Notes: generated by a model from the letters alone, not told the origin. Shown: positions 21,001-39,000, numbered from the stretch's first letter. The stretch: DNA of 64,000 bases from Candidatus Omnitrophota bacterium (GCA_028716965.1 JAQUOV010000008.1:16766-80765); one strand, 5' to 3'. Program-made: numbers and translations.

Positions 21001-24000
21001 TAACCCTGTTCTTTGCGCCATTACGCATATTAATCCTGCCAAATTTAATAAGCAGGAGGCCCAAACTTAACGATGAACCAAAAGAAAAATCTTCCCGGTA
21101 CCTGTCTATGCTGCCTGTTAACCTAAAGCTTCCTGACTTTTCTCTGTATCTAGCGTCCATGTCAGTGCTAATCTTATATATGAAACCCTCTTTTCCCCTA
21201 TAGAACCTTAAGTAAGTATTGCCGAATTGAATAATAAGCCTGTCCTGGCTATCCAAAGAATATTCATCTACCGGGATAGAAATGCCGGTCATGTCTTTTA
21301 ATACCACGCTAAGAATTCCATCTTTAGCTTCGGGAAATACGCTCATCTGCCAATCAGTATTCCACTTATTAATTAATGCTACGATACCCTTATTGTAATA
21401 GGCCCTGAGCTCTTCGGCAGGATCAAAAGCGTTAAACCAAGAAATAGTTTTTTTCATAAATTCAAAAATCATCTTCATATGGTCCTGCAGTCTTTTAAGA
21501 ATGCAGAAATGTTCTTTTGGCCCGGCGTTAATTATATTTATAAACCTCTCTACGTCATTCCGTTGAATCCTTTTTATTGATTCATTATCTATCGCCATTG
21601 AGCCGATAACCAGCATTGACTCCGCCTCCCTCGGGCTGATTTTAAGCGGTATACCGAATGCCTCCAAAGATACTTCTCTGTCTTCGGTTATGTCAAACTC
21701 GACAAATATTGAGGGTTTGGTAATCACAGTTAAAGACGAGGACACAAAGAGCCTTTGCCTAAGTTGCGTTATCGCTCCATATGGAGGATTTTTAGATATA
21801 TACTGCCGTATAATCTCTGTGCTTAAGCTCTTTGGAGCATTCCGCTTCCCTCTTTGTATTTTATCCCGCAAGTTAATCAAAGCGGTAAATAGCTGCATCT
21901 GTTCGCTGGAAACAGGCGGAGTGAATACGATTCCGGAATTTCTTAATAAATTATCCACGTTGGCAACCGCTTCTCTCCCTTCTGTCCGATCCTCAGTAAC
22001 AAGAAAACCCCCAATCTCAATACTTGATGCTATTTCGCGCAAAAACCTACTATAATAAGCAGCGATATTTTCACCAGCTCTCTGGTAATATGCGGATATT
22101 CCGTTCTTAAGATGTTTCAGCATTACGCCAGGGTAGGTTGATGGATCAGTAATATCCGCATTAACAAATAATATTTTATAAAGCTCTATTTCCGAACCAT
22201 GGTAAGCCCAGAAGAAATTAATATGCGTTGCGTCTTTACTCTGATAGATTTCAATATTATATTGGGGGGTATTCAAAACGCCCATACATTTAAGCTCGGC
22301 GATAATATTATCTTCTGGAAAATCAGTATTCGGCAGAGCAAATCCGTGGTGACGCTTTATATCAAGGTAATGCTGTATACGTTTATAACGCAATAAGTCC
22401 TGCCAGTTATTGCGGGCCCACAGCAATCTCTCTAATGATAAATTCATATTTTTATTTACGAGGATGGCCTTCTTGGGATTCAAAGAAAGCCAAAGCCTTG
22501 ATGCATCCGCGCCACATCCTCCATAAAGGCATGGGGCATCACTATTCTTGAAACCCGTTAGATTCTTCACCCCCATATCAAATCCGACGTGGACAATGTT
22601 AAGCATCCCTGTATCTACGATGCGGTGATCTAAACCAAGCTTATTGAAATGTTCTGATCGGCCTTTGCAGTTTCCCGCTATTGCGCACTTTAACAAGAAA
22701 TCTAATTCTAGGCTGGATATCCCTAATCCCAACGAGGAATCAGATTTGCTTGACAGAGATGAGGCACTCAATCGGTATGCTTTTTTCACAGCCATAAACG
22801 CCTCCCAGCCGGAAAGCTCCGAAGCAGGATCAAATAAAGTATTAATATGATAATATATTTCCCCGATATTATAGATGCTTCCTTTCGCTATGCCGTTTTG
22901 TATAAATTTAGCTACCTGAAGAAATATCAGGTCCTTGTAAGGGTATTTTTTATTCGAGATACTCAATAAATGAGCGGCTAATTCCGACAGGTCAAGCAAG
23001 CAATCTAAGCGCGAACGCGTCTCCTTCGTTATTATCGGCATCCATCCCAGCAGAGTCAGAAAAAGCGCCGGCTGGAAAATCCCCGCCTCGCTTGTAACCG
23101 TGAGCAACTGCTCGCTAATAGAGGGCTGCCAGTCGCAAGCAATTTGAATAAAATCATTGGCATCTATATCTTTCAATAGCCGTTCTTTTCTTAACTTAAA
23201 TATTACGCTGCTTTTTTCTTCCGTCTTTAGCAAGGCTTCCTCAAAAATACCTAAGCGGGTATAAATGGACAACGCAACGGATAATTTCCGCTGATAATAC
23301 CTATGCCCCCTGAATACCTCTAATCCATCAATATAAATCGCCCTGTCCAACGGCAATAGCTTTACAAAATCAACATAAGACTGTCTGATGTGGTTCATAT
23401 TTTCCGGCTCCCCGTCAAGAGCATCTTCCACCAAGATCACATTTATCGGGACGCCTTTTTCAAAGATTGCATGGAATACAAACCAGCTAAATGCTTTAAA
23501 AATACAGTCTTCATAAAATCCTCCTGTTAACATGAGGTTTAACTGCCCCGGATGTTCATACAACGGTCTCAAGAAATCCAGGATCAGCGGTTGCTCTTCC
23601 TCCCTCACGTTTTTCGGCTGGCTTGTCCTGTCAATGACCCTATGTATTCTTAGCCCGGCGTCAGTAAGGGTAAGAACAATTTGTTTTTCCGAATCCTGAT
23701 GACGCTGTTCATAATCATTCACGGTAAAAATGCCTATTTGAGAGTTTTTAGTTAAGCCAGGAATTCCTTCAGCTAATGAAGAGCTGCTCAGCTTATCCCA
23801 GGAATCTTTGCCAACCTCAAACGCAAAAGCGATAGCCTCATCCTTATTTTCAGCATCATCATGCCACAATATCTTAAAACCGCGTTCACTTTTGTCATAT
23901 AAACTATCCAAAGAATCCCTCTCTCCTGCTTGCAAATCAGAATACCTTTCCCCCGACAAGATCAAAGTTAACTTGCCCTCTCTGGGAGTAAAAAGGGAAG

Positions 24001-27000
24001 AAATATTCGGATATGCATAAATCCCGAAGCCGCCTAAATTGGCTAAAAGTATATCGGTAGGGATTTTTGTTTTAGGGGCAAAATAACGTAAATCCTTACC
24101 CATATGCTCATAATCAAAGGCTTCAATGCCGGTTAAATTATTCAATCCAAGCGTTTCGCGGAATAGCTCTTCAAGCATCCCTTCAATTTCCAGCAAGTGG
24201 ATATTTTCTGCTCCGAGTATTGAAGAGAATATGGCATCCACTCCATTGCCAAGACCGGCCACCGCTACTGTTTTCCCTTTAAATTCATTCCTGCCGAGTA
24301 TGTCCATTGCCAAAAGCAAAGCAGAAGTCCATACTTGATAATTACGGTCATTTCCTAATCCGGGCAAATATAGCCTTTTTGCTTCTAGGGGCACACTTAT
24401 GGCTTGTGAACGGATATCTGGAGTAATAAGCTCCTTTATCCACGGGTATTGGGAATTGAGCACAACTATTCCGCCTGGTCTAAAATAATAATTATTTTTG
24501 TCATGCACCGGGCCCCTGCAGGCCATAAAATCATCTGAATAAGTCCCAAGCAGGGAGCTGCAATCACAGGTAAACCTGCCAATAACCCTTCCTCCGGTCT
24601 CTATTGTTAATTCTTGCAAATATCTTCTGCAATCAGCAAGGTCATGGCCCAGGGCCGCGATCTTATCCAACAAGCTCTTTACATATCGCTCTGCTTTTTC
24701 CTGGCTATTATTTACTCTTTCTATTTGTTCCAAAAGATAAACTGAAATAGCCCTGTTATCTGCTAATGACGAGGCGCAATAATTTTTGTTGAATTTATGC
24801 GTATTCGCATGCGCCGGGAATGAAGAGCAGGAAGAGCTACCGTTTCGTAACTTATGGTAAATACTATGAGAGCTGATGCCATCCTCACAGCCCAAGCTTG
24901 CATGGATCCTTCTTAAATCTTGGGAGATAAACCCCGGGACAAAATAATCCGGGTAATTAGGGTCATCGCATCCGGTAAAGTAAAAATACCCTCCTTCACC
25001 CAGGAAACTTAACAATTGCCGGAAAACCCTCTCTCTTATCCTTTCATCAACATACATCAATACATGTGAACTTATCGCAAAATCAACGCTGCCTATCAAT
25101 TCTTTCAACCTGTTTATCTCTTTAAAATTGTGATAATCAAACTGGACAAATTGAAAATGGCGTTTATACTCAGCTATAAGAGAACCGTTGTCAAAATAAC
25201 GGCCAAAATCGATAAGCAGGCCTTTTCTGGATAACGACATGATTCCTTCGGCAATATTCCAGAAATCATAGGAAGCGCTTTTTGCGGCAAGAAGCAGCCT
25301 TAAGTCATGGCTTACTCCCCAAATTGTTACATTCCAATCTTCTATGTCCTGATTCCTGTCCCGCAGCAGCGTATCTATAAGAAGCAGCAAGCTGTAAGGT
25401 TCCTTCCCTTTTGAGCAGCCGACTGAGAAAACATTAATCTTTTTATCCGCAACTTTTTCATCAATGATTTTAGAAAGCAATTCTTCTATTCTTAACCAGG
25501 AAAGTTCTCTCCTAAAAAAGAAAGTCGCATCCCTTCCCAGCGGGATCTTCTTAAAGCGTTCAGTAATCAACCGCGCAAGGGAGGAAAAGTTAATATCAGA
25601 GGCGCCGATATCCTCTGTCATCACATCTTCAAATCTCCCATGCCGCAGGTCTTGGATAGGAGGAGAAACCAGCGCAATCTTATTTCCGGCAAATCTTGAA
25701 ATTATATGAATTCCGTTTTCTTCCATGACGTCAATTATAGCTTTTAATATTTGATATTTATGATCGGAATTCTCGACTGCCGCTAAAGAAGAGAGGGATC
25801 CCAGGGGACTGGCGGATTTTTTATAAGGGTATATCCTGGCAGTTAACTCGCTTACCCTTCCAATTAATCCTTCGGCTTTCTTGAAAGAAACCTTTTTACG
25901 CTTATCTCCTTCTTTATCTATTACTAACGCCTCTCTATGATTTTCGCTGAAACGCCGGGCAAGCAAAGAGTAAAATCCCGGGTCAGTGAGATTTGGGACA
26001 ACTAAACGGCTGTTTTCCCTTGCGCATATTTCCAGCAAGTGGTTGATTATGTTCGTGGCTATATCCAGCTTCCTTTTGATGCGCATCACGTAAATATAGT
26101 GCACATAAATTTCGCTCATTACCTTTCCGTTCATCTTGCTGCCGGAAAAACTTATTCTTATTGCGCCGGCATACTCGCTGTTCCTGTAGATCGCATACCA
26201 AGCGGATCTGTACGCCCTTTCCAGGGTAATAACGTAGTTTGCCGCGCCCTTGATATCAATCAAACCGCGGTTATCCAGCCTTGAAGGCGCTTCGGGGATC
26301 TTCCGGTATTCGATTATTATCCCTATTTCTCCCGCGTCCGCGTCCCCTTCCCTGCCGCCTGCAACAATCCAGATCGGCCTGGCATAATTTTTGATATGCA
26401 AGTTCACTGCCCCGCACCTAAGCGCCCTGTTCGTCCATTTAATATAGTCTTCAATTGGCAAGCCGTTTGCCCTCTCGTTTTCCATTTCTATAAAATCCAT
26501 ATAATGCTCCCAGGTTACCCGCTCTATTTCAACTCCCTTATTTTCCAGGTACTGCCTTAAAGATATCCTTCCCGGAAGCGCGAAATCAAAATAATCCTCG
26601 CTGTCGTTTTTAAGTATCTGCCTATATTCTTCCTGTGAATACCTGGTTGGATAGATCAACGCATTATACTCATCGAGACTGTAACCTTCTTTGGTATCAT
26701 GGTTTATAAACGGCTTGCTGTTCTTTAGCAATAGCAGGTAAAATAACGGGGTTGTTCCCCTGCCGCATTCTACCTTATACCTTTCTTTAAATTCTGCATA
26801 TCCGCTTAAAGGCGTGAATGTATAACGCCCCATGCCTTGGGTTATCTGCTCTGTGGCGTACAGTAATTCCGAAGCGATTGCCGGACCGAGGCCTTTTTGG
26901 CGGAATTTTTCCCCTACCGCCACCGCGTAATGGATCCAGCAATTATCTGTTTGCGCGTTTCCTTTAATAGCCATAATTTGCCGAAGAGACCCGGTTATAT

Positions 27001-30000
27001 GATTTCGACCATTCGCATATAAAGATGCGCACCAGACAACCCCCGCGATTTCGCCTTCAATTGTAGCCATAAGATGGCCGCCCGGATTATTCTTAAGTAT
27101 TGCTTCGGATTCTTCTTTGGACAATTCAAACCTGCCCAGCCATTCTTTATTATGAAAACCAACCGCGGCTTTCAGGCTGCCGGCATCAATTTCTTTTATT
27201 GTAATTGTTTCGCCTTTTTTATTTACTGTCTTATGTATGGCTGAAGCAGCTGAACCAGGCCATATCAAGCCCTCATATTGCGTACCCTTAAGGATACCCC
27301 TGACGATAGCCCCGTGATCTCCGCTAAATACTCCCTGCTTCACCATAAACGCGATGGTCCTTAACGCCATTTCGGAGAAGTTGGGGTTTTTTGCGCCGTC
27401 AGCTAACAGCTTAAACAGCCTCTCTTGCTCGATCCTGTCCGCCTCTACATATTGCCTGCTGACCGCCTTAGAAAAATCTTCATAGATTAATATGGAATAG
27501 GGATAACCTGAAACTCTGCCGTTATACCTGCCGGTCCAGGAAAGGGTATTCATTTCCTCTGCTTCGTGGACCACTAAATGAAGATCGGCACCTGCCTGAT
27601 TCGCTACTTTTAATATGCCGCCTGCCAGGCCCGGCTGCGGCCTGACAGAATATATCAAATCCGCCCCTTGATATATGCTCCATTCGGGGCGGGTGATATC
27701 ATCCTGCGCGGTTATCAATCCGGGATAGATCTCTTTTGCCTGCTTTAACGGCGGCTCAACTATATCGGTTACTATCACTTCCGCGGCCTCACCGAATGCT
27801 TCCTTCAGACCGCCCGCTGCCTGCGGATGCAGGCTGATCCCGACCTCTACTATCTTCCTTGCTTGGGGATAGTTTTCAGTTACATGCTCAACCAGCAATT
27901 CCCAGGGGTCATTCCCTTCTTTAGATGATAGAATGGATGGCTCTTGCGCGAGAGATGAAGCGGATATTACTCCTGCCTCTTTGAGTAATTCCCTGCGCAT
28001 TTCTTCAGATATATAAGGAGACAGCTCTTTTTTTAGAAGCTCGCTTAGCTGGTAAAGGTTATTTATCTTATGTTTGATATTAATCTCTTGCAGAACTCTA
28101 AAGTAAGCGGGGATTAGGTCTAATAAAGCTAACTCCCTGCTGGTCAATTCCCTTTTATTATGCATTAACCGGTATCCCAGCCAATCCAACGGCCTTGCTA
28201 CCAGCGGATCAAAAGGCCCGGCCAAATAGCTCTCTAACTCAAGGCCTTCCCCATGCATACCTTCATGCATACGGTGATGCAGGCTTCCGCGCACCACAAT
28301 AATTAACGAACCGGGATGTATATCAACCAGCTCCTCAATTTGGCGAAGCACATTTTCATCTCTCAAGGAATAAGATTCTGCGGCCTTCTTTGCGCATTTA
28401 ATCAGCGTATTACGCAGCTTCTCAGTTATACATCCGCCATATTCCTGCCATACCTGCTTTGACAAAATCTGTTTTTCCAGATCAATTATCCAGGACTCAT
28501 AAGACAACCTTTCCACAACAAGATAAATCTTTGGGTGGCGGTCTATAAACACCTGGTACGCTTTGAGGTATTCAGAAAGGTCCCTGGAACCAAGTTCATT
28601 TATCTCGTCATAATAGACTTTTCTTATGGAAGCGTAATATTCCAGCCTTTTTAGCGTATCCGAGAATCCGCGGCGGCGGAGGACCTTCTGTTTAGAAACC
28701 GACTTTTCTTTCTTTAAAAAATATTCCGCTTCTTCCAGGTCCATAGAGAATGTGGCTTCCTTAAGCAGTATTACTTCCCTTCCCTCCGAATAAGCCTGTT
28801 GAACGGATTTTTCCAATATTGGTTCCATCTCTTTAAAATCTCCGCCGTATTGATGAGGGCCGTAGGCAAAAACAATTCTTGTCATGGTTTCCCGGCCCGT
28901 GCCCGAAGATAGTTCATTTTCAAGCTCCTTGAGCAGGAGATCCGCGAATTTGCCTGCCTTAGGCATATTCTCCATTCCAAGAACCGCAATGAGCGCTTTC
29001 TTTTTCTGATTATTTGATTTGTTCCCCCTCAAAACATTTTCTGCTATTTCTGCTATTATGGCATCATTAACAAGTGCGGAAACTTCCGGATGGCTCATCA
29101 AGACCTTTAAAATTACTTTCTCTGCTAAAGAAGAACTGCCATTATACAGTTTTTTGATATTCGTAAGGCAGGACCGCTCGATAAGACCCTTATCTAATAA
29201 GCCGGACTTATCCTGATAATCTTCACATAACGCATTTATTAATTCTCCCCTTTCCTGGAAATTCAGCGCGTTGAATTCATTTTTGCCGCCGGCAATGAAT
29301 TTGGTTATAACGGCGATTTTAGCGCGGTTTCTGGAGGCGATCCCTAAAATAGAGAATACACCTCTATCCTGCATTAATAAATAATCCGAAACTATTTTAA
29401 ATGTCGGGTTAATGATCTTTCCGGCGGGGTTGAGGGGGTCTTTTATTCTGGGGGAAATAAATACTGCCTGATAACTCTTCGTCCAGCGGGCCTGGGCATT
29501 AGCTAATTTCCCTGGCGGAGGGCTGCGGGTAAGGCCCCTTCTCTTAAGATAACTGACAAATTCATTTTTGAACACCTGCCTTGCGGAAAGAGTAGGTTTC
29601 GGCTTCTCGATATCTATCCTGTCGAACCTGGATTCGTAATACGCGAATATGAATTCAGAAATGAACTTGGCATCAAAACTTAAAGCTAAGCATTCATTAA
29701 ATGCCTTACGCGCCTCATTATGCTTATTCTGGCTAATCAGCCTGTAAATATAGCCTATTTTCTTCCTCAAGCCGATAAATTCCGGCTCACTAAGGAAATG
29801 GCGCACCTGTTTTTCTACCGTTTGCTCTTTTTCGCCTTTCTTTTCTTTAAGCATAATGCTGATTCTCGCTGCTGCCTCGCTAAAATTACCCTTCTCCAGA
29901 TATTTCCCTATAAAGAATAACCGGTTGCTTATAAATTGATTCCTTACGTCCAATAGATGCTTGAGGTCGCCAAGTAAATTACTTTTTGCGTAATTCAGCA

Positions 30001-33000
30001 TATTGGCGATGGTTTTTTTCCTCGCCTCCAGTAGCCTTTGCGCCATATAAACAGCCGGGCGGAGGCGTCCAGCATTTTTTAGCCCCAGCTGCGTTAAAAC
30101 TATCTTTAACCCAAACCTAATGGCCCTATTTTCTAATACTATCGGCCTGCACTGTTCTGATACTAAACAGGTTATCTGTTTTGCGGTAAAATCTGTCTCC
30201 AGCACCTTAAGCGCTTTATCTATCCAAGCCAATTCTTTTACCTGGCTGTCTATCCTATGGCCAAGGCTGCGGAAAACATCTAAAAGGAACGAATAACTTC
30301 TGGGCCTGGATCGCCTGACTACCGCGATTTTTCCTTTTTCAAGCTCTTGACGTACCTGCTGGCCCTGCGGCACTTCATATTTTAGGACACCGGAATTAAA
30401 TCCTGCTGATTGAATACAAGGATAGGATCGCTTATCGCAATCAGCTAATTGTTTTGATAGTTCCATTAGGGATTCTAAGAGGGCGGCAAAGGCTGCCTGT
30501 TCGTTATTTCTTAAAGCAATCTCAAGGTTCTCATATAATTTAGCGCTTAAGCCGGCCGGCAGATAACCTTCCTTGGCAAGCTTTTGTAGCTGCTCGGTGA
30601 GTGCCTGAGCTTTATCATGAGAATCAAACAAGGGCGCCTGTCTGGGGTTGTTTAACCTCTCATACAATAACTCCATTAACCCCAAATATGCACTGCCTAC
30701 CATAGCTTGCCGCGCCGCGTAGGTGAGGCTGCTTATGGATGAACCGGCCCTATTGAGAATGCCCCTGTCCGCAAGGCTGCTGTTTGATTTCTCCTCAATG
30801 ATAGACATTTTCTCCCTAGAGATAAGAATCCGCACTAAAGTACCTGCATTATGCTTGCTTCTGTCTAATATCACAAAACTGTCAGGAGGAATATAAACTT
30901 TTGTTCTTCCCGAGAGCATTTTTATTTTTCTTGTTTCTATAACAATCAGGTTAGCCCACAGTTTATCAATCCATCCCCTAACCTTAAAAAGCCCTTCCCC
31001 CTTCCCCCCCAATACGTGTTTCTTTCCTTTCTTAGCGCTATCTAACTTTGCCTGCAGTACTTTTTCTAATGTATCGTCATCCAAGCCACAACCGTTATCT
31101 TCCACCTCCAATACAATATCACCACTGTCTTCCAGCACTCTTATTTTGAGCCTTCCCTGCCCTTCCACCAACTCTCCGTTCATCTGGGCTTCCGAAATAG
31201 CGTCAATGGCATTGTGAATAAGATGGCAGAATATCTCCTTTATTCCTGATATTCTTTCATGATCCAGGAATATATTCCCTGAAATTAGTGCTTTATTTAT
31301 CATTGCTTCGTCAATGACATTATCAAAAATAAATATCCACTGCCGATCCAAATTCCGTTCTAACGACAAGGTACTTTCTGGCCGGATAGAAATAACTGCT
31401 GAATATTCAAGCAACACTCTTGCACTTAGAGACCCGGTCCCGGTTTTTCTAGGTAAAAGAGGGGTGGAGGATAATAGCCTTTTAGAAACCTGACTGAAGA
31501 TTGGCGAAACATCCGGGTTGTTATTTAATTGGTTTAAATGGCTTAAAATCTCTTCTCTATCGGGCCTTAAACATAGGCTCTCCAGGAATTCAAAGATAAA
31601 CCCTGCCAGCCGCACCGGCTCCAAGATCCCGCTATGCTCCATAAAAGCGCAGGCGGCAATAAATTTCTTTATTTTCTCGGGATTATCCGCCGTCCGGGCA
31701 ATCTCAAGAAAAGCATCCATATAGCATAAATTCCTCATAAACCAACCGTTGATCACATCCGCAATCAGCACGGGCAGGTATTTCTGCCTGAACCGAAGAA
31801 ACCGGATCATTTCTTCACCCATCCTTGTCATCTGCCGTATGCCTTCCATTACCTTATCATCAACGATGATCCCTATTTCCCTGGTATAATCGCTTAAACT
31901 GCCGGGAATACGCTCAACAGCAAGGATTTTACCGGTAAGATAATTGTGCGCGCGGGGTGAAATTTCCGAGTCTATCCAATCGGAAGCCGCAAATGCCTGC
32001 ATAATAATGCCCATCCCTTCCCCTGCCTTATAGGGTACATGATGATAAGCAACAATTTTCTCACTGAAAGCGGTAAGCGGGTATCCGATCTCGGCGCATA
32101 TCTCAAGGGAATATTGGGGGTGGGCCTTCTTGGCATAGTTCAATTTTCTTTTTCCCAGCCTCTGCGGGTGATTAACCCTGCACAGCAAATCTTCCGCGGT
32201 CTTTCCTAGATCATGCACCAATGCCGCTGATCTTAAATCAGCAATAATTCTTTTGGAAAACCCTAAATACCTTCCTAACCAATCAACGATTCTGGCTACC
32301 GCCCTGCCGTGCGCTAAGATATGCGCACTTCCCGGAGGAAACGCCGAAAGCATCTCTTTCAATCTAGCAGACAGGGAATTACCGCTTAGAGGGCTGGATG
32401 ATAAAGAAAGGTTCTCTATGAACCTGCCGGCCGTGATGTACATGTTTTCCAGACCGCGGATTCTATCTTCGGAGGAAAAATTGCCCTGGTCCAGAAAATA
32501 TCCTATAAGCCGGCTTGCCTGATGCTTTTCGCTGCTCCTTAAAGGATGCTCCTTGGCCAGGCGAAGGTGCCAGTGCGGATTAAAGGGCTGCTGCCGTATT
32601 GCCTTGGCAAGTACATCCCTGGCGCAGCTATAATCATTCAAAATATAATTATAGAGCGAGGCCATTAGCTCATAAACCGGCATGAAGCTTTCTTCTGCCT
32701 CAATCAGTTTTTCTCCTGCGATCACCGCGAACTCAATACTGCCTAATCTCGCAAGCGACTGGATATCCTCCCACCGTCTTATAATACCGTCCTGCTTATC
32801 AAACAGCCGTATCTTAAAAGAAAGGTAATCGCGGAAAGAAACAAAACCGTAATTAAACATCTCCTGGCGGATAATTTCTATCGCGGAAATAACATCCTTG
32901 CCTGTTAATTTGATAACTTCGGCTAAACTTTTAAACTCTTGGCCATAGTTTTCTGAATCACTCCATCTGCTCATCAATTCAACCGCGTAAGGTTCAAAGA

Positions 33001-36000
33001 TATCTTTCTTCTCTTTCAACACTCGTAAAATATCTTCCCTTGAGAAATTATGAGGTATACATGAAATAATCCTGCTGACCATCGGGTCTGCTATGGGCAG
33101 CCTGAAAGAGCCGTCAACCTGAAACGCGTAATCCACATATTCAGGGTTGAATATATAGCTGCCCAGGGATTTAATGCCCATGCTCCCGATAGATAGCCCA
33201 TTCTCCGGGCCGGCTCTGTCGTAAAGATGGGGGTTATTTAACAGGCTTAAGTTCGTAAATTTGCTGCCGGCGGCATAGATAATGGCGGGATTTCTGTTCA
33301 CTGAATAACCTATCGGGAGGACATAGAAAAGCAGGAGCGACTCGGTAAGCTTTGGCATGAGGGAATCGGGGGTAGAAAGGATGATATTGTAAGTGGGATA
33401 AACCCCTTCCTCCAGGAATATTTTGTGGCGCTTAAGCATCCAATCAATGCCCTTATAGCCCTTACCCATGAGGAATGGCTGCGATATTTCATCCAAGCCG
33501 AAGTTGATATGATAGAAACCGGCTCTCTTTAATTCTCCGAGGAACTGGCGCAATACGAACTCATCCTCGGGAAGAGTATTCACATGCGCCTGCAGCACCG
33601 CGAAACGGAAAAACTTATCCAGGCCGTATTCTCTGATAAGTGAAATTAACTCTTCGGCCCTTTTTCGGTTGACAAAGAAATTGTCGTCATAAAAATTAAT
33701 GTTGATCTTATCTCTTAGGGGCATATTCAGTTCCAATATATCGATAAGCCATTCCTTTATGCCGGCAGCCCTGGCAAAACGGTGGCTTTTGCCGCCTACC
33801 ATATAAAAATTGCAGAAATTACAACTATTAACGCAGCCCCGGGAAGTTACCAGGTTATATTCATTTCCGATATGCTTAATTCTTGGGAGGGTTATCTCCT
33901 CCGTTAAATTAATTTGTTCTAAATGATGCGAAATAATTATGTCGCCCCATCGGATAAATAGCCCTTTGGGCAGCTTATTGCCTTTCCCGCTGAGAAAATC
34001 GATCAATTCCGGGGCGCAATATTCTCCGTCTCCCCGTAAGATAGCAAAATTGGCTCCATCCGGAAGCAAAGGCAAGATCTGATTAGGCATCCTGGTGAAG
34101 GGACCTCCCAGAATATAGAAAATCCCGTCATTCTCATCCGCCTTAATCAGTTCAATGAGCTCTAAAACAGATCTATCATAAGCTGAGATCCCGATAATAT
34201 TGGGATTGAAAATTTTTCTTTGGTTATATACCAGCGTATTTTTAGCTTGAAAGCCGCCAAAATCATCCTCTAACGCAACCGGGTAAACAGCGCTGTTGAT
34301 CCCGGCCTTTTCCAACCAGCGCTGCAGCAGGTCAAGCGGATATAAATTTTCATTTGCCATCGCCAGCAAAAGAACGTTTGGATCCCTTATTTTGCCCTTA
34401 AGCTGCGGAAGGATATCATGACTATCCGCGTAAATCTCCAAATCTTCTCCAAGCTTAAGTCCGCGCTCCCGCAATTTTAACAAAAGTTCATTTTGGCTTT
34501 TTGCGGCCGAATCCAATAATTCTACGATAGTCCCGTTTTCTAAACCCAGGCCATTTCTTAGCAGCTTGATCGCCCATGAACCCGGGATTGCCGTATTTTG
34601 CAGGGATACCGCCTTACCATTCCAAGCCGGAGCAACAACCTTTATAGCACCTTTCCTTCTTCCTTCAAGAGTTTCGCTAAACAACGATATTTTTTCTTTC
34701 AAGCGAAACATATTTTCTTGAATTTCTCTATCCTGCGAATATTGATATGCCTGTTCTGATAATTCCAGCGCCTCTATGAATTCAAATAAACCTTCCTTGA
34801 TCCGCGCTCTTAAAACCAGTGATCCGGGATATTCTCTGCTCTCCTCCGGCACCTGCTCTAAAGAACTTAATATCCTGTCCCAATTCCCCTCTCCCAGCTT
34901 AATTTCATATTTTTCTGCGAGCGAAGAAGCGCAGGCATTATTGCCAAAATAACCATAATCGCACTCAAACTCTTTCATAACTATTTTAATCGCCTGCTCA
35001 ACTGATTCCCGGTATTCCTGGCTCCTAAAATCTTTGACATATAGATAAGGGCCGATTTTTGGCTCAAATTTTTCATAAAGAAAACCGAATTTATGAAACA
35101 GTTTCTCAACCCGGGGGAAATATACGCGGAAATCCACGGCTTGCCTGCTTTGGGCATCTTTCAGCATGCAATACAACATAAATGAAGCGAAATCAACGCC
35201 AACGCAGCCACGGTCCTCTCTCGTAAATATATGATCGCTGCTTCTGCCTGCCTCGGCCCTCGGAGCTGCCTTCTCATTATCATAAATTATATTAAATGCC
35301 CCCTTAACAATTATTTCTTCTGCGGCCTTACTGATGCCATCTTCGGGCCTTACAATGGCATAATAGATAGCTTCTTCTTGGAAACGCTCAAAAACCTGCC
35401 TTCTCATCAAAAACAAACCTTTATTATTTCCGATATAGCCTATAAGCTTACCGTGGCAGTTTTCTTCCGGGACGGCTATGCCTTTTAGTTTTATGATCGG
35501 GCTGCCGCATCTTGCAAAGCTGCCAAAATGATTTCTTGCTGATCCCCGCACTCGTCCTTCGGCTTCAATCGGAGGAAGCAACAAGAATGGCTCGCCCTTT
35601 GTGCTGCGAAGAGGCAAAACATCCTGTTTTTGCCTGATAGAAGAAGATGCCTGTATATACCCCAACTCGCACAATTTGCGGAAGTTTTCTTCTCCTTCCT
35701 TCCCAATGATGAGATTCTTGTTTTGGATAATCAGCATCAAGTCATCAAACCACCCGGGCCGCTTCTTTTTCAGGTGATCAAGGAAATTTGTCCCGCTTGA
35801 AACATCGTATTTAATGTTATTCCCATTGACATCCGGGATGTTTTGAGAAAATATGTGCTTTAAAAATGAGGAAACGGAGATATTCATATTTACCTTAAGC
35901 GCCATATCAAACATCCTGCGGGCGTAAATACGCGCATCTTCGTTCTTTGCCAGGAACAGCCCCAGAACAAAAGGAATTATTTTCTCCCAGGTCCGTGTGT

Positions 36001-39000
36001 TCACTACCTCACTGATATATTCAGGTTCATCGAGTAAATCATTCATAACTAACTTGAATACTCCCCGGTCAAATCCTTGGGGCGTAAATAACCTCTCCAA
36101 AAATGCACGGTTAGCAGCATACTCTTCGGGCTTTGGATCCCCCTCGTGCATTTGCCGCCTTTCGGAAACAGGAACCTTTGGCGAAGACTTAGGATTATTT
36201 CCCGGCACCTTTTGCCTGGATGATTCCATGGCGGGAATAATATAAAGGCTGTCCAGAAAGTCTTCTTCGGTCAGACGCGGGTTAAGGATATCCCTTAATG
36301 CTGATTTTATACCTGCGTATCTATTGCCAAATTGGGCATTAAATAAATCCATAATAATACCGCCTGCGCCAAACCTCAGGATAAACTCCTTTTCCGAACG
36401 CACAAGACCAAGGTTATCTCTAAGAATTATGTCAATCACGTCAGCATGCGCGTCTATCTTGCTTATCAATGAATTCCTTAGGCAAATCAGCAGTTTTGTT
36501 ACCGCTATTTCAAGCCCTCTTCTTTTTAGGGAGAAGAGCTTTCTAAATACTTCATTAATCTCAGGCAAGTTTCTTTTAAAATAACTACCTCTTCCTTTAA
36601 GCTGCTTATAGACAGAATAGAGGCCCAAAGAATTAGCGATAAAAAGCGCTGTCCTGTATTCATCATCCTTCATATCCGGATAGCAGAGCCAGAGCGATTC
36701 CTTTATTCTGCCGAGTATTTCGATGGCCCTTTTCGGTTTATGCCTGTGATGATATAGCCTAATAAGTCTGTCATTTATCATTAAATCGGGATTCCCGGCT
36801 CTTACCGGCAAGACCACCAGCTTATCATCTTGATCTAATATTATTTTACCGTATCTATCCTTAACAAAACGGATGTATCTCGGTTTACAATCTATATACT
36901 TAATATATGTTTCTGCACCTAATAGCCCCTCTTTTTTGAATTTACCCAAATACCCGCCCTTAAAGAAATAGCCTTCTTTTTCGTCAACTTTCACCCCCGC
37001 AACAATAAATGTTTTCATCTTGTCAATCTTTGGCTGCGTAAGATAATCAATCACATCTATTATTCTGCCTTTTTCAAAGCTGTCCTCAGCGGCACCTTTC
37101 CTTACCTCATAAACAATGTACAATTTCTTAATTTGCACCACTTCCCCGTTCTTTTTTGCTTGGAATTCAACGGGATAAGCCAGCTTTTCATCCGGGTTAG
37201 GGTTAATTATGCGGGTTATATCCACATAATCCGCCTTTAATTCCGGGTCAAAACGTGACCAGCACCTTCCTGCTATACTGACGTAGGTCTTACTGATGGC
37301 ATAGTCGATTATTTGATAGGCATCATGATCAATCTGATTAAACTCTAAGGAATTCATATTTATAAAAGCAGTGGTATATTTCTGGTCAGAAATTCTGCGC
37401 ACTTTAGCTAACTCCCTCACCCTGGTTTCATTTTCAAAAGAAGCCTCCAGGAATTCAACTCTGACGATAAGTCCGTTCTGGATCCAAAGTTTTATTTTCT
37501 GGTGAGGACGAGTCGTAATCCTGAACCAGAGTTTTAAATTCTTAGGCATCTTTCCGTTATATAAAGGTCTTCCGCCCCCTAAAGTAACACCCCCTTCTGC
37601 ATCCGTATAGATATAAGTGAACACATCTTTAAGTTTTTTGAATCTTTCTTTAAGCACATGCCCACGATGCACTTTGAATTTGCGGCTTAATTTTTGAGTT
37701 TTGTTGTCAAATACCGGGAAATATTCAAACCCATATCCGTTATCAATAAAAAATATGCGCAGGGGAATCCCTTTTTCATTAAATTCTGCCTCATAATTCA
37801 TGCCTCCAAATTCAGGAAAATTTATGACAACTTCCTTCTTTATCAGCCTGTTATATATCTGTCCGCATTCAGGCATTGTCCCTTTTAAAACAAAATGGCC
37901 GCATTGCGTTAGATCTGAATATGCTTGTAATCCGCTTATATCTTTATATTTGATTTCTTTCCCTTTAAAAGAATAATGTGTTATTCTCCTCCAAATATAT
38001 TCCCTTAATTCTTTCTCATTTTCGGATATCCCTCCTTTTTTCTCCGGCCACAGCATTTTATTAAGAGTAATAAATACCCTGTTCTCCCATAATTGCTCTT
38101 CCTGTTCCAATAAATAGCTAACCTGGGGACTGGAAAACATGCTCATAAATAGCGCTCTATCCTGCTTGTTGAAAACTTTATTTTTGCGCAGACTTTCCAG
38201 AAAATGGTACAAATAATTTAGCCCTTCCTCATACATTCCCCTGCCGATAAGGGTGATTGAACTGTTGTATAAATAAGCGGCGCCGGAAGAAGAGACCCCA
38301 CCAGCCACGGTTGAGGAAGACTCTTGCTTTTTAGACCGGCGCCGCCTAATCCTTACAAAACCATCTATTTTTGGCGCGGCAATTCTGCTATTTTTAGAAA
38401 ACCCTCCTTCAGAAGAAAGGGTCTTTGATCCAACGAGAATATTGGCTTCCGGCTTTACCTTAATAATAACCTCCGGCAGGATAGCTTCTAAGTCTTCTTT
38501 ATTGTAAACTTCTAACTCACTCAATTCATTTATGACGGCGGTTATTTCTCTCCAGAAAAGTCCGGTATTAAATAATCTCTTCAATGTTTGTTCCATGATC
38601 TTATTATCTACCAGCTTATTTAACCCATCCAGCAGGCTGATAACCTCAAGCCACTGCGCATCCCTCTTGGTAGCCTCTATCGCCACACGTCCCAGGACTG
38701 ACAATTGGTGCATCTTTGGATAAAGCTCTCGAAAGAATAATACAAGCGGCATTCTAATGCCTCCGCCTTGGCTCAAAATGTCACCTACCTTATCGAGCCC
38801 CCATTCCCCGATTTCCGCGTATTCCAGGAGCTCTAAAATGAAATTATTAGTGAGCCGGCATCCTGCTAATTCCGGATACCGGGACAAATACGGTTGCACT
38901 ATTCTGTGTTCTTCCTCAGCTAAAACACCCTGCCTGCGTTTTTCTCTTTCCAATTCTTCCCGCTCTTTCTCATACTCTTTGATTTCGCATTCCATAACGA

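What the first reader, a model, noticed from the sequence alone, without database searches (positions are those of the whole stretch)
30950..32345. Signalling-type modules inside the giant protein: a GHKL ATPase next to an HD phosphohydrolase
Complete N, G1 and G2 boxes of a histidine-kinase-like ATPase lie at 30961-31260. About 600 nt upstream in coding direction there is an HD domain (HILAHGRAVARIV...ALVHDLGK). A second HATPase_c lies at 60000-60420. I did not recognise a HisKA H-box next to either one. They may therefore be GHKL ATPase modules (Hsp90/MutL/kinase-like) and not classical sensor kinases, or the phospho-acceptor region may be divergent.
Basis: partly seen in the sequence, partly recalled or inferred. 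Interest (0 to 1): 0.55.

Follow-up and report, generated by a model that had tools for sequence, protein, structure and literature searches.

The report
Two enzyme modules in giant protein
Inside one unbroken gene that fills the whole 64-kb window and most resembles the giant genes of Omnitrophota bacteria, there is a real metal-dependent phosphodiesterase module followed by a real ATP-binding module, but they look like independent 'beads' of kinds already catalogued in such proteins, not a classical sensor kinase.

Summary
The whole window is one open reading frame on the minus strand (21,333 codons, no stop). At the stated place it encodes an HD domain (Pfam core 32027-32314; full module 31472-32389) and, after a roughly 40-residue linker, a GHKL ATP-binding domain (30782-31267). 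The HD module derives from the HD-GYP family. It keeps every metal ligand (H, HD, H, HH, D), but the GYP loop is deleted and the KPG motif is changed. The GHKL module belongs to a small clade centred on Omnitrophota. Its sequence profile matches histidine-kinase and CheA catalytic domains best, while its predicted fold matches Hsp90 N-domains best. It has N, G1, G2 and G3 boxes and His where GHL ATPases have the catalytic Glu. Three tests found no DHp/HisKA, and Pfam found no HPt or receiver domain anywhere in the 21,333 residues. No retrieved relative has the two modules side by side. The 'second' HATPase_c (60002-60295) and a third, missed one (42713-43030) are a different, orthodox kinase type and also lack a detectable H-box. 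HATPase_c and HD domains are already reported as a co-occurring set in Omnitrophota giant proteins, so this is a new member of a known kind with two divergent domain variants. Function is inferred, not shown.

The parts
2..64000 (-). Single giant open reading frame (21,333 codons in the window, open at both ends) that contains everything below.
   Evidence: 0 stops in minus-strand frame 0 against 775-1,830 in the other frames. Pfam finds a mosaic of unrelated enzyme domains: GNAT, DnaJ, 3x HATPase_c, GH77, GDE_N/GDE_C, TPR, HD, UPF0146 and CheR methyltransferase, plus below-cut-off hits to radical SAM, DUF294 and FHA. A hydrophobicity scan finds only 4 transmembrane candidates, and aa 867-20013 have none.
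32471..33343 (-). Upstream block of unknown function (aa 10220-10510), just before the HD module.
   Evidence: Homologous to aa 4008-4282 of P0001 = UCD15759.1, a 6,905-aa Candidatus Omnitrophota protein (E 1.2e-22). Only a weak TPR_14 hit in Pfam. P0001 has no HD module after this block.
31472..32389 (-). HD module (aa 10538-10843): an HD-GYP-derived phosphohydrolase core (Pfam core 32027-32314) plus a helical tail of about 150 aa that is shared only with the HD modules of Omnitrophota long proteins.
   Evidence: Pfam HD 24.5 bits against a cut-off of 22 as an isolated segment. The giant-type-only profile A4 scores 337 bits here (the window sequence is one of A4's 7 members, so this score is partly by construction), and its only PDB matches are HD-GYP enzymes: 5z7c 9.3e-15, 4mcw 1.2e-9, 9rbz 2e-4, 9rc0 6e-4. 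The tail (..VINGWF..EKIKKF..) aligns with P0002, P0003, P0004, P0006 and P0009.
31979..32311 (-). Span holding the complete metal-ligand set: H10564 (32309-32311), H10596-D10597 (32210-32215), H10627 (32120-32122), H10653-H10654 (32039-32044), D10674 (31979-31981). It also holds K10600 of HDLGK, 'NHP' (aa 10610-10612) in place of KPG, and the site of the 7-residue GYP-loop deletion right after H10654.
   Evidence: These nine columns (H, HD, G, K, H, HH, D) are invariant in alignment A3, which joins 7 giant-type and 8 classical HD-GYP sequences. The giant-type rows have a 7-column gap where the classical rows read ERxDGxGY. Residues and coordinates verified. Roles of the motifs come from Galperin and Chou, bioRxiv 10.1101/2021.11.05.467447.
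31355..31471 (-). Ser/Thr/Pro/Gly-rich linker and lead-in (aa 10844-10882) between the HD and GHKL modules.
   Evidence: Sequence SSTPLLPRKTGTGSLSARVLLEYSAVISIRPESTLSLER. No relative aligns across it.
30782..31267 (-). GHKL (Bergerat-fold) ATP-binding module #3 (aa 10912-11073): N box 31196-31225 (H10926, N10930, D10933), G1 31082-31102 (D10968, G10970, G10972), G2 30989-31009, an extra beta-hairpin, and G3 30827-30847 (G11053, T11054).
   Evidence: HATPase_c 40.3 bits and HATPase_c_3 26.2 bits. Subfamily alignment A2 has these residues invariant or nearly so. The AlphaFold2 model built on A2 has mean pLDDT 75 and pTM 0.70, with the core at 80-93, and shows 6 strands including an extra hairpin at model residues 149-165. 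Foldseek top hits are Hsp90-family N-domains, E 2.8e-8. The profile against the PDB gives WalK-type kinase 4e-13, CheA P4 3.5e-11, Topo VI-B 5.5e-10, HtpG 7e-9.
59372..60658 (-). GHKL cassette #1 (aa 1115-1543): an orthodox histidine-kinase-type catalytic domain (Pfam hit 60002-60295) preceded by a helical region of DHp length without a supported H-box, and followed by an unidentified domain of about 210 aa.
   Evidence: HATPase_c 55.9 bits. NCBIfam top hits are all sensor histidine kinases. The DHp+CA profile aligns aa 1115-1334 but puts the phospho-acceptor His on Lys1128, with low confidence. The DHp-only profile reports no alignment at all in this upstream region. The downstream domain has no Pfam or PDB match.
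42080..43393 (-). GHKL cassette #2 (aa 6870-7307), a paralogue of cassette #1 (Pfam HATPase_c 42713-43030), lying about 210 aa after a glycogen-debranching-enzyme domain.
   Evidence: HATPase_c 45.7 bits. aa 1225-1543 align with aa 6983-7307 at 25.5% identity, E 1e-16.

Best explanation
The two domains are genuine but independent enzyme 'beads' on a giant multi-enzyme protein of the Omnitrophota type. They are not a two-component sensor kinase. (1) The HD module descends from HD-GYP phosphodiesterases. It keeps the full H/HD/H/HH/D metal-ligand set and the HDxGK lysine, so it most likely still binds a two-metal centre and hydrolyses a phosphoester bond. It has lost the GYP loop (including the substrate-contacting Tyr) and the KPG motif, and it reads RAHN where classical enzymes read RxY[K/R]. 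Its substrate is therefore probably not c-di-GMP bound in the classical way. (2) After a flexible linker comes a Bergerat-fold module from a small clade centred on Omnitrophota. It keeps the Mg-binding Asn, the adenine-binding Asp and the G1/G2 lid glycines, so it most likely binds Mg-ATP. It has His, as in CheA, where GHL ATPases have the catalytic Glu. It has no DHp, HPt, receiver or transducer domain. It therefore most likely acts as an ATP-dependent switch, or as a kinase that does not use a histidine acceptor, acting on nearby parts of the same giant protein. What is shown: domain identities, motif states, the absence of partner domains in the window, and the lack of adjacency in the retrieved relatives. 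What is inferred: catalytic competence, substrates and any regulatory role.
For: Giant ORF and its domain mosaic. Omnitrophota affinity: the best relatives of all three local blocks that carry an organism name are Candidatus Omnitrophota proteins, namely P0001, P0003, P0004, P0006, P0007, P0016, P0021, P0033 and P0054, plus one from Auribacterota. HD-GYP ancestry with intact ligands and a deleted GYP loop; motif roles from bioRxiv 10.1101/2021.11.05.467447. GHKL motifs, model and mixed affinity. No DHp/HisKA. No receiver, HPt, GGDEF or EAL domain in 21,333 aa at E<=0.01. His10821 lies in the HD tail. Independence of the modules: each hit in the exhaustive search covers only one block, and none of 107 fetched relatives has both module types. 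The stand-alone relative P0016 sits among housekeeping genes with no HD neighbour. Published catalogues already report HATPase_c, HD, methyltransferase and GNAT domains as a co-occurring set in Omnitrophota long proteins.
Confidence: 0.55

Rival explanations
1. GHKL#3 is an Hsp90/MutL-like ATPase clamp or chaperone module. ATP binding closes the lid and drives dimerisation or a conformational cycle that helps fold or rearrange the giant protein.
For: All of the top 50 Foldseek hits are Hsp90, TRAP1, GRP94 or HtpG N-domains. HtpG is the best single-sequence PDB hit (3.5e-4). The module passes HATPase_c_3. The N box is of the NAxDA type, the G2 box 'GGKGEGL' resembles the MutL type (my own knowledge of these motifs), and the GHL matches extend past profile position 142, where the kinase matches stop, to about 172-183 of 228. 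More distant clade members (P0021, P0036, P0054) have the textbook ExxxNAxDA with Glu. A J-domain with an HPD motif sits elsewhere in the protein at aa 880-929.
Against: The catalytic Glu is His in the window and in its nearest relatives. Pfam at E<=10 finds no middle or transducer domain in the 338 aa downstream. The sequence profile scores kinase and CheA domains higher. Foldseek TM scores are only about 0.47, with rmsd of 6-13 A.
Confidence: 0.15
2. It is a sensor histidine kinase whose DHp/phospho-acceptor region has diverged beyond recognition. In this reading His10821, about 108 aa before the N box, or a histidine supplied in trans, is the acceptor.
For: The subfamily profile matches WalK-type and CheA catalytic domains best. 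His10821 is at canonical spacing from the N box. The region between HD and GHKL is predicted to be helical, though the model is of low confidence. The N-4 histidine is CheA-like, and CheA phosphorylates a histidine on a separate domain (my own knowledge).
Against: Pfam finds no HisKA-type family at E<=1. The DHp+CA profile aligns only the N-box-to-G2 core. The DHp-only profile scores -3.5 bits, inside the shuffle range. His10821 lies in the HD-module tail, which is shared with relatives that have no GHKL after it, and it is conserved in only one of them. No receiver or HPt domain occurs in 21,333 aa. In the stand-alone relatives that were scanned against Pfam (P0005, P0008, P0011), HATPase_c is the only hit, and P0005 has only about 140 aa before the domain. 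P0018 has about 14 aa before the domain and P0016 about 100 aa.
Confidence: 0.08
3. HD and GHKL form one functional signalling unit, for example a cyclic-dinucleotide phosphodiesterase whose activity is gated by ATP binding to the neighbouring GHKL domain.
For: The two modules are directly adjacent, joined by a linker of about 40 residues. The HD descends from the HD-GYP family. HD and HATPase_c fall in the same Pfam co-occurrence module in Omnitrophota long proteins.
Against: No retrieved relative shows the adjacency; in P0002 both domain types occur, but more than 1,000 aa apart and in the opposite order. The GYP and KPG substrate-contact motifs are lost. The window has no GGDEF, EAL or PilZ domain.
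Confidence: 0.1
4. One or both modules are catalytically dead remnants that serve only as structural or binding scaffolds in the giant protein.
For: Both are highly divergent, with 33% identity or less to anything in 1.84 billion representatives. The HD has lost its GYP and KPG motifs, and the GHKL has lost the GHL catalytic Glu and has no phospho-acceptor. Inactive HD-GYP domains that act through binding are known.
Against: Every HD metal ligand and every GHKL nucleotide-binding residue is kept and is invariant across the clade. That pattern is expected for ligand-binding sites under selection, not for decayed ones.
Confidence: 0.1
5. The pair is part of an anti-phage defence system of the GHKL/HD type.
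For: GHKL ATPases and HD nucleases occur in several defence systems (my own knowledge). There are weak Cas3 HD matches (PADLOC Cas3g E 3e-5; NCBIfam cas3 E 1.3e-3).
Against: The Cas3 matches cover only the generic H..HD core. There is no PADLOC GHKL hit. The modules sit inside a metabolic multi-enzyme giant protein, and the best HD structures are HD-GYP phosphodiesterases, not nucleases.
Confidence: 0.02

Closest known systems
Omnitrophota giant proteins: 'Archaeovorins' (West-Roberts et al. 2023, bioRxiv 10.1101/2023.11.21.568195) and the 'multi-enzyme metabolic cluster' class with Pfam co-occurrence Module 1 (bioRxiv 10.64898/2026.06.07.730766)
   Same: One ORF of more than 21,000 codons carries many unrelated enzyme domains with none dominating. 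HATPase_c, radical SAM, TPR, GNAT, methyltransferases and sugar-polymer enzymes are present. HATPase_c and HD belong to the published co-occurrence module. Every relative that carries an organism name is from Omnitrophota, apart from one Auribacterota protein and one labelled only '[bacterium]'. There is no close sequence relative, which matches the reported 80% of singleton clusters.
   Different: The window is an internal fragment, so the N-terminal C39/S8 peptidase, the SecA_DEAD domain and the many transmembrane helices described for full-length proteins were not seen; only 4 transmembrane candidates were found. The cited papers, as far as I read them, list Pfam families but do not describe the GYP-less HD or this GHKL clade.
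HD-GYP cyclic-dinucleotide phosphodiesterases (PDB 4MCW, named PmGH in the review read; V-cGAP3, PDB 5Z7C)
   Same: The fold family is the same by profile (9.3e-15 and 1.2e-9 with a profile that contains no classical HD-GYP sequence). The H, HD, H, HH, D metal ligands and the HDxGK lysine are all present.
   Different: The 7-residue ERxDGxGY loop, which holds the GYP motif and its substrate-contacting Tyr, is deleted. KPG is replaced by NHP. RxY[K/R] reads RAHN. A helical tail of about 150 aa is added. The module sits inside a giant protein instead of following a REC, GAF or PAS sensor domain.
Histidine-kinase catalytic (CA) domains and the CheA P4 domain
   Same: These are the best sequence-profile matches (4e-13 and 3.5e-11). 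N, G1, G2 and G3 boxes are present, the ATP lid is short, and the His at N-4 (HLIHNAID) resembles the CheA N box as I recall it.
   Different: There is no DHp/HisKA, P1/HPt, P3 or P5 domain and no receiver. There is no F box. An extra beta-hairpin lies between G2 and G3. The N box reads NAxDA, not NAxK(Y/F).
Hsp90/HtpG, MutL and Topo VI-B N-terminal ATPase domains (GHL branch of the GHKL superfamily)
   Same: These are the best structural matches (Foldseek E 2.8e-8). The N box is NAxDA, the module passes HATPase_c_3, the beta-sheet is larger, and the matches reach further along the subfamily profile than the kinase matches do.
   Different: The catalytic Glu of motif I is His here. No middle or transducer domain is detectable. 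The ATP lid is much shorter.

Membership tests
Two-component sensor histidine kinase | HATPase_c catalytic domain with N, G1, (F), G2 boxes | tested here: met
   HATPase_c scores 36.8-40.3 bits against a cut-off of 26.4. N, G1, G2 and G3 boxes are present; no F box is evident.
Two-component sensor histidine kinase | DHp/HisKA dimerisation domain with a phospho-acceptor His about 110 aa before the N box | tested here: not met
   Pfam finds no HisKA-type family at E<=1. The DHp+CA profile aligns only the CA core for GHKL#3. The DHp-only profile does not exceed shuffled sequence upstream of any of the three modules: best -0.1 and -3.5 bits, nothing reported for GHKL#1, shuffle maxima 3.4-5.8. His10821 belongs to the HD tail.
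Two-component sensor histidine kinase | Cognate receiver (REC) or HPt partner | tested here: not met
   Pfam finds no Response_reg or Hpt domain in any of the 21,333 residues at E<=0.01. The parts of the gene outside the window and its neighbours could not be examined.
GHL ATPases (Hsp90 / MutL / GyrB / Topo VI-B) | Bergerat fold with motif I ExxxNAxDA, including the catalytic Glu | tested here: not met
   The fold and NAxDA are present, but position N-4 is His10926, not Glu. Some distant clade members do have Glu.
GHL ATPases (Hsp90 / MutL / GyrB / Topo VI-B) | Adjacent middle/transducer domain that completes the active site | tested here: inconclusive
   Pfam finds nothing in the 338 aa downstream at E<=10. 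The model shows only helices after the domain.
CheA-type kinase | P1 (HPt), P3 dimerisation and P5 (CheW-like) domains around the P4 catalytic domain | tested here: not met
   Only the P4-like core matches. Pfam finds no Hpt, H-kinase_dim or CheW family in the window.
HD-GYP phosphodiesterase | Metal ligands H...HD...H...HH...D | tested here: met
   H10564, H10596-D10597, H10627, H10653-H10654 and D10674 are all present and fall in columns that are invariant with classical HD-GYP sequences.
HD-GYP phosphodiesterase | GYP motif (HHExxDGxGYP), whose Tyr contacts the substrate | tested here: not met
   All giant-type modules have a 7-column gap right after HH; the window reads HH-VPYK.
HD-GYP phosphodiesterase | KPG motif and RxY[K/R] motif, which give c-di-GMP specificity | tested here: not met
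   KPG is NHP (aa 10610-10612). RxY[K/R] is R10683-A-H-N10686, an RxxN form. The review reports that RxxN and RxxQ variants shift specificity towards cGAMP, but without the GYP motif that inference is weak here.
Omnitrophota giant multi-enzyme protein | Single polypeptide of 10,000 aa or more carrying many distinct Pfam families with none dominating | tested here: met
   At least 21,333 aa. More than 15 distinct families were detected, and the most repeated one (HATPase_c) occurs 3 times.
Omnitrophota giant multi-enzyme protein | Encoded in an Omnitrophota genome | tested here: inconclusive
   The source contig was not found. The assignment rests on the best relatives being Omnitrophota proteins, at only 22-36% identity.
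Omnitrophota giant multi-enzyme protein | N-terminal C39/S8 peptidase, SecA_DEAD domain and many transmembrane helices (West-Roberts et al.) | not testable with these tools
   The window is an internal fragment. None of these were seen in it, and only 4 transmembrane candidates were found.

The most novel reading that the evidence does not exclude
The GHKL#3-type domain would be a previously undescribed, Omnitrophota-centred branch of the GHKL superfamily that links the kinase/CheA and Hsp90/MutL branches. Its N-terminal half is kinase-like. It has a GHL-like enlarged sheet through a beta-hairpin insertion, and position N-4 switches between Glu and His within the clade. In giant proteins it would work as a cis-acting, non-histidine protein kinase or ATP switch that sets the activity of neighbouring enzyme beads. 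The GYP-less HD module would be its antagonist phosphoesterase. Together they would form a self-contained regulatory pair inside one polypeptide.
Probability: 0.1. Interest if true: 0.6.

Novelty: new member of a known kind. Interest (0 to 1): 0.3.

Why it matters
Giant Omnitrophota proteins are among the largest proteins predicted in any organism, and their function is almost entirely unknown. Showing that their 'signalling-looking' domains lack every partner needed for a phosphorelay, yet keep intact ligand-binding sites, narrows what these beads can do. The remaining options are local ATP-dependent switching and phosphoester hydrolysis, not classical two-component signalling. The work also defines two compact, expressible constructs (aa 10538-10843 and aa 10883-11075) for direct biochemistry. 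The two domain variants, a GYP-less HD-GYP and a GHKL with an inserted hairpin, are modest additions to two well-studied superfamilies. On its own the finding is not surprising, because published catalogues of these proteins already list both Pfam families.

Tried and rejected
1. A word-indexed homology search with the HD-to-GHKL segment found nothing at E<=0.001.
2. An exact 60-mer from the finding was absent from genome contigs and metagenome contigs, so the source organism was not identified directly.
3. Single-sequence AlphaFold2 of the 541-aa segment gave pLDDT 35 and was unusable.
With A5 it returned only generic HD-GYP genes from many phyla.
5. The search for related loci with the GHKL alignment A6 in metagenomes returned 80 loci. 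A six-frame HMM screen showed that only L031 (the contig of P0018) is a true clade member, and no locus pairs the two module types.
7. H-box look-alikes were considered and rejected because a DHp-only profile does not beat shuffled sequence and the DHp+CA alignment places no His at the acceptor position. They are FWHDLKNKL (aa 1055), IAHCLNPE (aa 6818), KKVRPL (aa 1128), KEIIPL (aa 6870) and LSHLNQL (aa 10821).
8. My impression that the domain downstream of GHKL#1 and #2 is a degenerate cytidylate kinase got no support from Pfam or the PDB.
9. The 'SLSAR' motif that brackets the HD module is not a DNA-level repeat, since the codons differ, and it is not conserved in relatives. I treat it as a curiosity, not as an insertion footprint.
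10. The anti-phage defence reading is rejected: PADLOC gives only weak, generic Cas3 HD hits.
11. The genomic context of the stand-alone relative P0016 is housekeeping genes and gives no functional clue.
Full report
**1. What the window is**

Minus-strand frame 0 has no stop codon in 21,333 codons and runs off both ends of the window. The other five frames have 775-1,830 stops. Everything in the finding therefore lies inside one giant protein. I number residues from the window's right end, so residue i occupies window positions 64000-3i+1 to 64000-3(i-1).

Pfam scans of overlapping 5,000-aa chunks show a mosaic of unrelated enzyme domains:
- GNAT (aa 205-280)
- a J-domain with an HPD motif (aa 880-929)
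- HATPase_c #1 (aa 1236-1333)
- GH77 (aa 5485-5598)
- glycogen debranching enzyme GDE_N/GDE_C (aa 6184-6779; 265 bits)
- HATPase_c #2 (aa 6991-7096)
- TPR repeats
- a weak radical-SAM match (aa 10051-10207)
- HD (aa 10563-10658)
- HATPase_c #3 (aa 10919-11021)
- UPF0146, GNAT and a CheR-type methyltransferase (aa 12826-13007)
- a weak DUF294 nucleotidyltransferase match, and more TPR repeats

A hydrophobicity scan finds only four transmembrane candidates, and none between aa 867 and 20013. The finding therefore sits in a stretch of about 19,000 aa on one side of the membrane. Because so many domains in that stretch need ATP, SAM or acetyl-CoA, I infer that this side is the cytoplasm.

**2. Checking the observation**

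HATPase_c covers window 30938-31246 and scores 34-40 bits against a cut-off of 26.4. The N, G1 and G2 boxes lie at 31196-31225, 31082-31102 and 30989-31009.

The HD hit (32027-32314) falls just under Pfam's cut-off inside long chunks (19.7-21.9 bits against 22). It passes as an isolated segment (24.5 bits). The exhaustive phmmer search of 1.84 billion cluster representatives supports both domains independently, with HD-block hits down to 1.2e-19 and GHKL-block hits down to 1.1e-11, using E-values for the whole library.

The 'second HATPase_c' is confirmed at 60002-60295. A third copy at 42713-43030 was missed.

**3. Where it comes from**

An exact 60-mer from the finding occurs in neither the GTDB species genomes nor the JGI metagenome contigs. 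The exhaustive search found only 54 proteins at E<=0.001 and none below 1e-30. The hits that drive the analysis are 22-36% identical to the window. Many hits are themselves 2,000-7,000 aa long.

Apart from P0009 (labelled only '[bacterium]') and P0023, every looked-up relative whose source name gives an organism is from Candidatus Omnitrophota:
- P0001 = UCD15759.1
- P0003 = MCM8801563.1
- P0004 = MFH1768154.1
- P0006 = MCG8431477.1
- P0007 = MFH1768410.1
- P0016
- P0021 = MEW6171275.1
- P0033 = MFA5276489.1
- P0054 = MEW5759008.1

P0023 is from Candidatus Auribacterota.

This matches the published picture of Omnitrophota giant proteins. West-Roberts et al. list HATPase_c and Radical_SAM among the 20 most frequent domains of 'Archaeovorins'. 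A 2026 preprint describes a 'multi-enzyme metabolic cluster' class. It also reports a Pfam co-occurrence module made of methyltransferase, HATPase_c (136 proteins), GNAT, HAD and 'HD-domain regulators', and finds that 80% of long-protein sequence clusters are singletons.

**4. The HD module**

The hits inside long proteins (P0002, P0003, P0004, P0006, P0007, P0009) and the short protein P0038 share a module of about 280-305 aa with the window. P0038 covers only its core. In the long-protein hits the module is an HD core plus a helical tail of about 150 aa (..VI.SWF.. ..LK.F..), and this tail is missing from the short classical proteins.

Alignment A3 joins 7 giant-type and 8 classical HD-GYP sequences. 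In it H10564, H10596-D10597, G10599, K10600, H10627, H10653-H10654 and D10674 are invariant. Every giant-type row has a 7-column gap exactly where classical proteins read ERxDGxGY.

A profile built only from the seven giant-type sequences (A4) avoids circularity. Its only PDB matches are still HD-GYP enzymes: V-cGAP3 5z7c at 9.3e-15, 4mcw (PmGH) at 1.2e-9, and 9rbz/9rc0 at 2e-4 and 6e-4.

According to Galperin and Chou, the GYP tyrosine hydrogen-bonds to the substrate's ribose-phosphate ring, the KPG motif binds the second guanine, and RxY[K/R] gives c-di-GMP specificity. In the window KPG reads NHP, RxY[K/R] reads RAHN, and the GYP loop is gone.

My reading is that the metal centre is intact but classical c-di-GMP recognition is not. 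This is most likely a live phosphoesterase with a different or relaxed substrate. That conclusion is an inference.

**5. The GHKL module in the finding (#3)**

Its nearest relatives (P0005, P0008, P0011, P0016, P0018, P0023, P0024, P0033 and others) form a small clade. They share the signature HL.NAIDAI(A/S)E ... LEVEDNG.G(I/L) ... GG.GEG ... IEIDTR ... K.Y ... GT..RI.

On Pfam these proteins hit only HATPase_c, and 7 of 13 also hit HATPase_c_3. None hits HisKA. In P0018 the domain starts about 14 residues from the N-terminus, and in P0005 after about 140 residues.

The clade profile scores WalK-type kinases best (4e-13), followed by CheA P4 (3.5e-11), Topo VI-B (5.5e-10), HtpG (7e-9), BCK kinase (2e-7) and MutL (3e-6). 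The kinase alignments stop at about profile position 142. The Topo VI-B and HtpG alignments run on to about position 172-183 of 228.

An AlphaFold2 model built on the clade alignment has pLDDT 75 and pTM 0.70, with the core at 80-93. It shows the alpha/beta sandwich plus an extra beta-hairpin between G2 and G3. All of the top 50 Foldseek hits in the PDB are Hsp90-family N-domains (E from 2.8e-8). TM scores are only about 0.47 and rmsd is high.

The N box reads H-L-I-H-N-A-I-D-A. That is the NAxDA form seen in GHL ATPases and CheA, but His10926 occupies the place of the catalytic Glu. More distant clade members such as P0054 do have the Glu.

So the nucleotide-binding residues are intact, while the module's class lies between the kinase/CheA and Hsp90/MutL branches.

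**6. Is there a phospho-acceptor?**

Three tests say no:
- Pfam finds no HisKA-type family at E<=1 upstream of any of the three GHKL modules.
- A DHp+CA profile built from 16 classical kinases aligns only the N-box-to-G2 core of #3. For #1 it spans a region of DHp length, but it places the acceptor His on Lys1128 with low confidence.
- A DHp-only profile scores no better than shuffled sequence in all three upstream regions. The best scores were -0.1 and -3.5 bits, nothing was reported for #1, and the shuffle maxima were 3.4-5.8.

His10821 is the only histidine at canonical spacing from N box #3. It lies in the HD tail, which is shared with relatives that have no GHKL after it. Pfam finds no receiver, HPt, GGDEF or EAL domain anywhere in the 21,333 residues.

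**7. Are the two modules a unit?**

Each hit in the exhaustive search covers only one block: the upstream block, the HD block or the GHKL block. HMMs of the two module types were run over all 107 fetched relatives and over the giant protein itself. No relative has both types, and the giant protein has exactly one copy of each. In P0002 a generic HATPase_c lies more than 1,000 aa before the HD.

Scans of genomes and metagenomes added no informative loci. The stand-alone relative P0016 sits among housekeeping genes. The two modules are joined by a Ser/Thr/Pro/Gly-rich linker.

I conclude that they are independent beads. The caveat is that no close orthologue exists to test this properly.

**8. 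The other two GHKL modules**

Modules #1 and #2 are orthodox kinase-type catalytic domains, and their NCBIfam top hits are all sensor kinases. They are paralogous cassettes: aa 1225-1543 align with aa 6983-7307 at 25.5% identity, E 1e-16. Each is followed by a domain of about 210 aa with no Pfam or PDB match. Module #3 is not their paralogue.

**9. Rivals and verdict**

A defence-system reading is rejected, because PADLOC gives only generic Cas3 HD hits. Four readings remain possible but are less supported: an Hsp90-like ATPase, a hidden histidine kinase, a coupled HD-GHKL switch, and dead scaffolds. They are set out under the rival explanations.

Its cautious interpretation is partly supported and is now sharper. 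The finding is a new, very divergent member of a known kind: an Omnitrophota-type giant multi-enzyme protein carrying HATPase_c and HD beads. Its two domain variants could be followed up with simple biochemistry.

Noticed in passing
window 2-64000 (- strand): The entire 64-kb window is one ORF of 21,333 codons with no stop, open at both ends, so the true protein is larger still. GC skew is negative in every 2-kb window, consistent with a single coding strand.
   Followed up: partly
It lies about 210 aa after a strong glycogen-debranching-enzyme domain (GDE_C, 265 bits, window 43664-44779), with GH77 further upstream (47207-47548).
   Followed up: partly
window 59372-60325 and 42080-43051 (aa 1225-1543 and 6983-7307): GHKL#1 and #2 are duplicated two-domain cassettes (25.5% identity, E 1e-16). 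Each is a kinase-type catalytic domain followed by a domain of about 210 aa that starts 'P(G/D)IIKR...ISGL(R/D)GS' and has no Pfam or PDB match.
   Followed up: partly
window 32363-32377 and 31418-31432 (aa 10542-10546 and 10857-10861); also 19640-19654: The pentapeptide SLSAR occurs 3 times against 0.03 expected from shuffles. Two copies bracket the HD module exactly. The codons differ, so it is not a recent DNA repeat, and relatives lack it. It may be chance or a linker motif.
   Followed up: yes
window 61403-61459 (aa 848-866) and 2501-3961 (aa 20014-20500): There are only four hydrophobic transmembrane candidates in 21,333 aa. About 19,000 aa between them have none. This contrasts with the 'numerous transmembrane regions' reported for full-length Omnitrophota giants.
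   Followed up: no
window 61214-61363 (aa 880-929): A J-domain (DnaJ, 27.0 bits against a cut-off of 27.8) with an intact HPD motif lies right after the first transmembrane candidate. It could recruit Hsp70 to the giant protein.
   Followed up: no
Relatives P0005, P0008, P0011, P0023 (stand-alone GHKL#3-type proteins): These proteins begin with N-termini that look like signal peptides or lipoprotein signals. That is odd for an ATP-binding domain. It echoes the doubtful 'extracellular' predictions noted by West-Roberts et al.
   Followed up: no
Relative P0054 (MEW5759008.1, Omnitrophota, 1,656 aa): It carries three copies of the GHKL#3-type domain, and two of them were seen to have the textbook GHL motif I with Glu (RELVTNAYDAI, RELIANAYDAS). 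The window and its nearest relatives have His at that position. So a Glu/His switch occurs within one clade.
   Followed up: partly
window 32471-33343 (aa 10220-10510): A block of about 290 aa just upstream of the HD is homologous (E 1.2e-22) to aa 4008-4282 of a 6,905-aa Omnitrophota protein. It has no Pfam assignment apart from a weak TPR hit.
   Followed up: no
Relatives P0008 and P0033: By eye, SAM-methyltransferase-like GxGxG motifs lie upstream of the GHKL#3-type domain, and P0033 is annotated as methyltransferase domain-containing. This echoes the published methyltransferase and HATPase_c co-occurrence and the UPF0146 and CheR methyltransferase domains downstream in the window.
   Followed up: no
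window 38757-39233 and 45933-46406 (+ strand): These are the only two complete ORFs of 150 aa or more in the window. Both are antisense to the giant ORF and are probably spurious.
   Followed up: no
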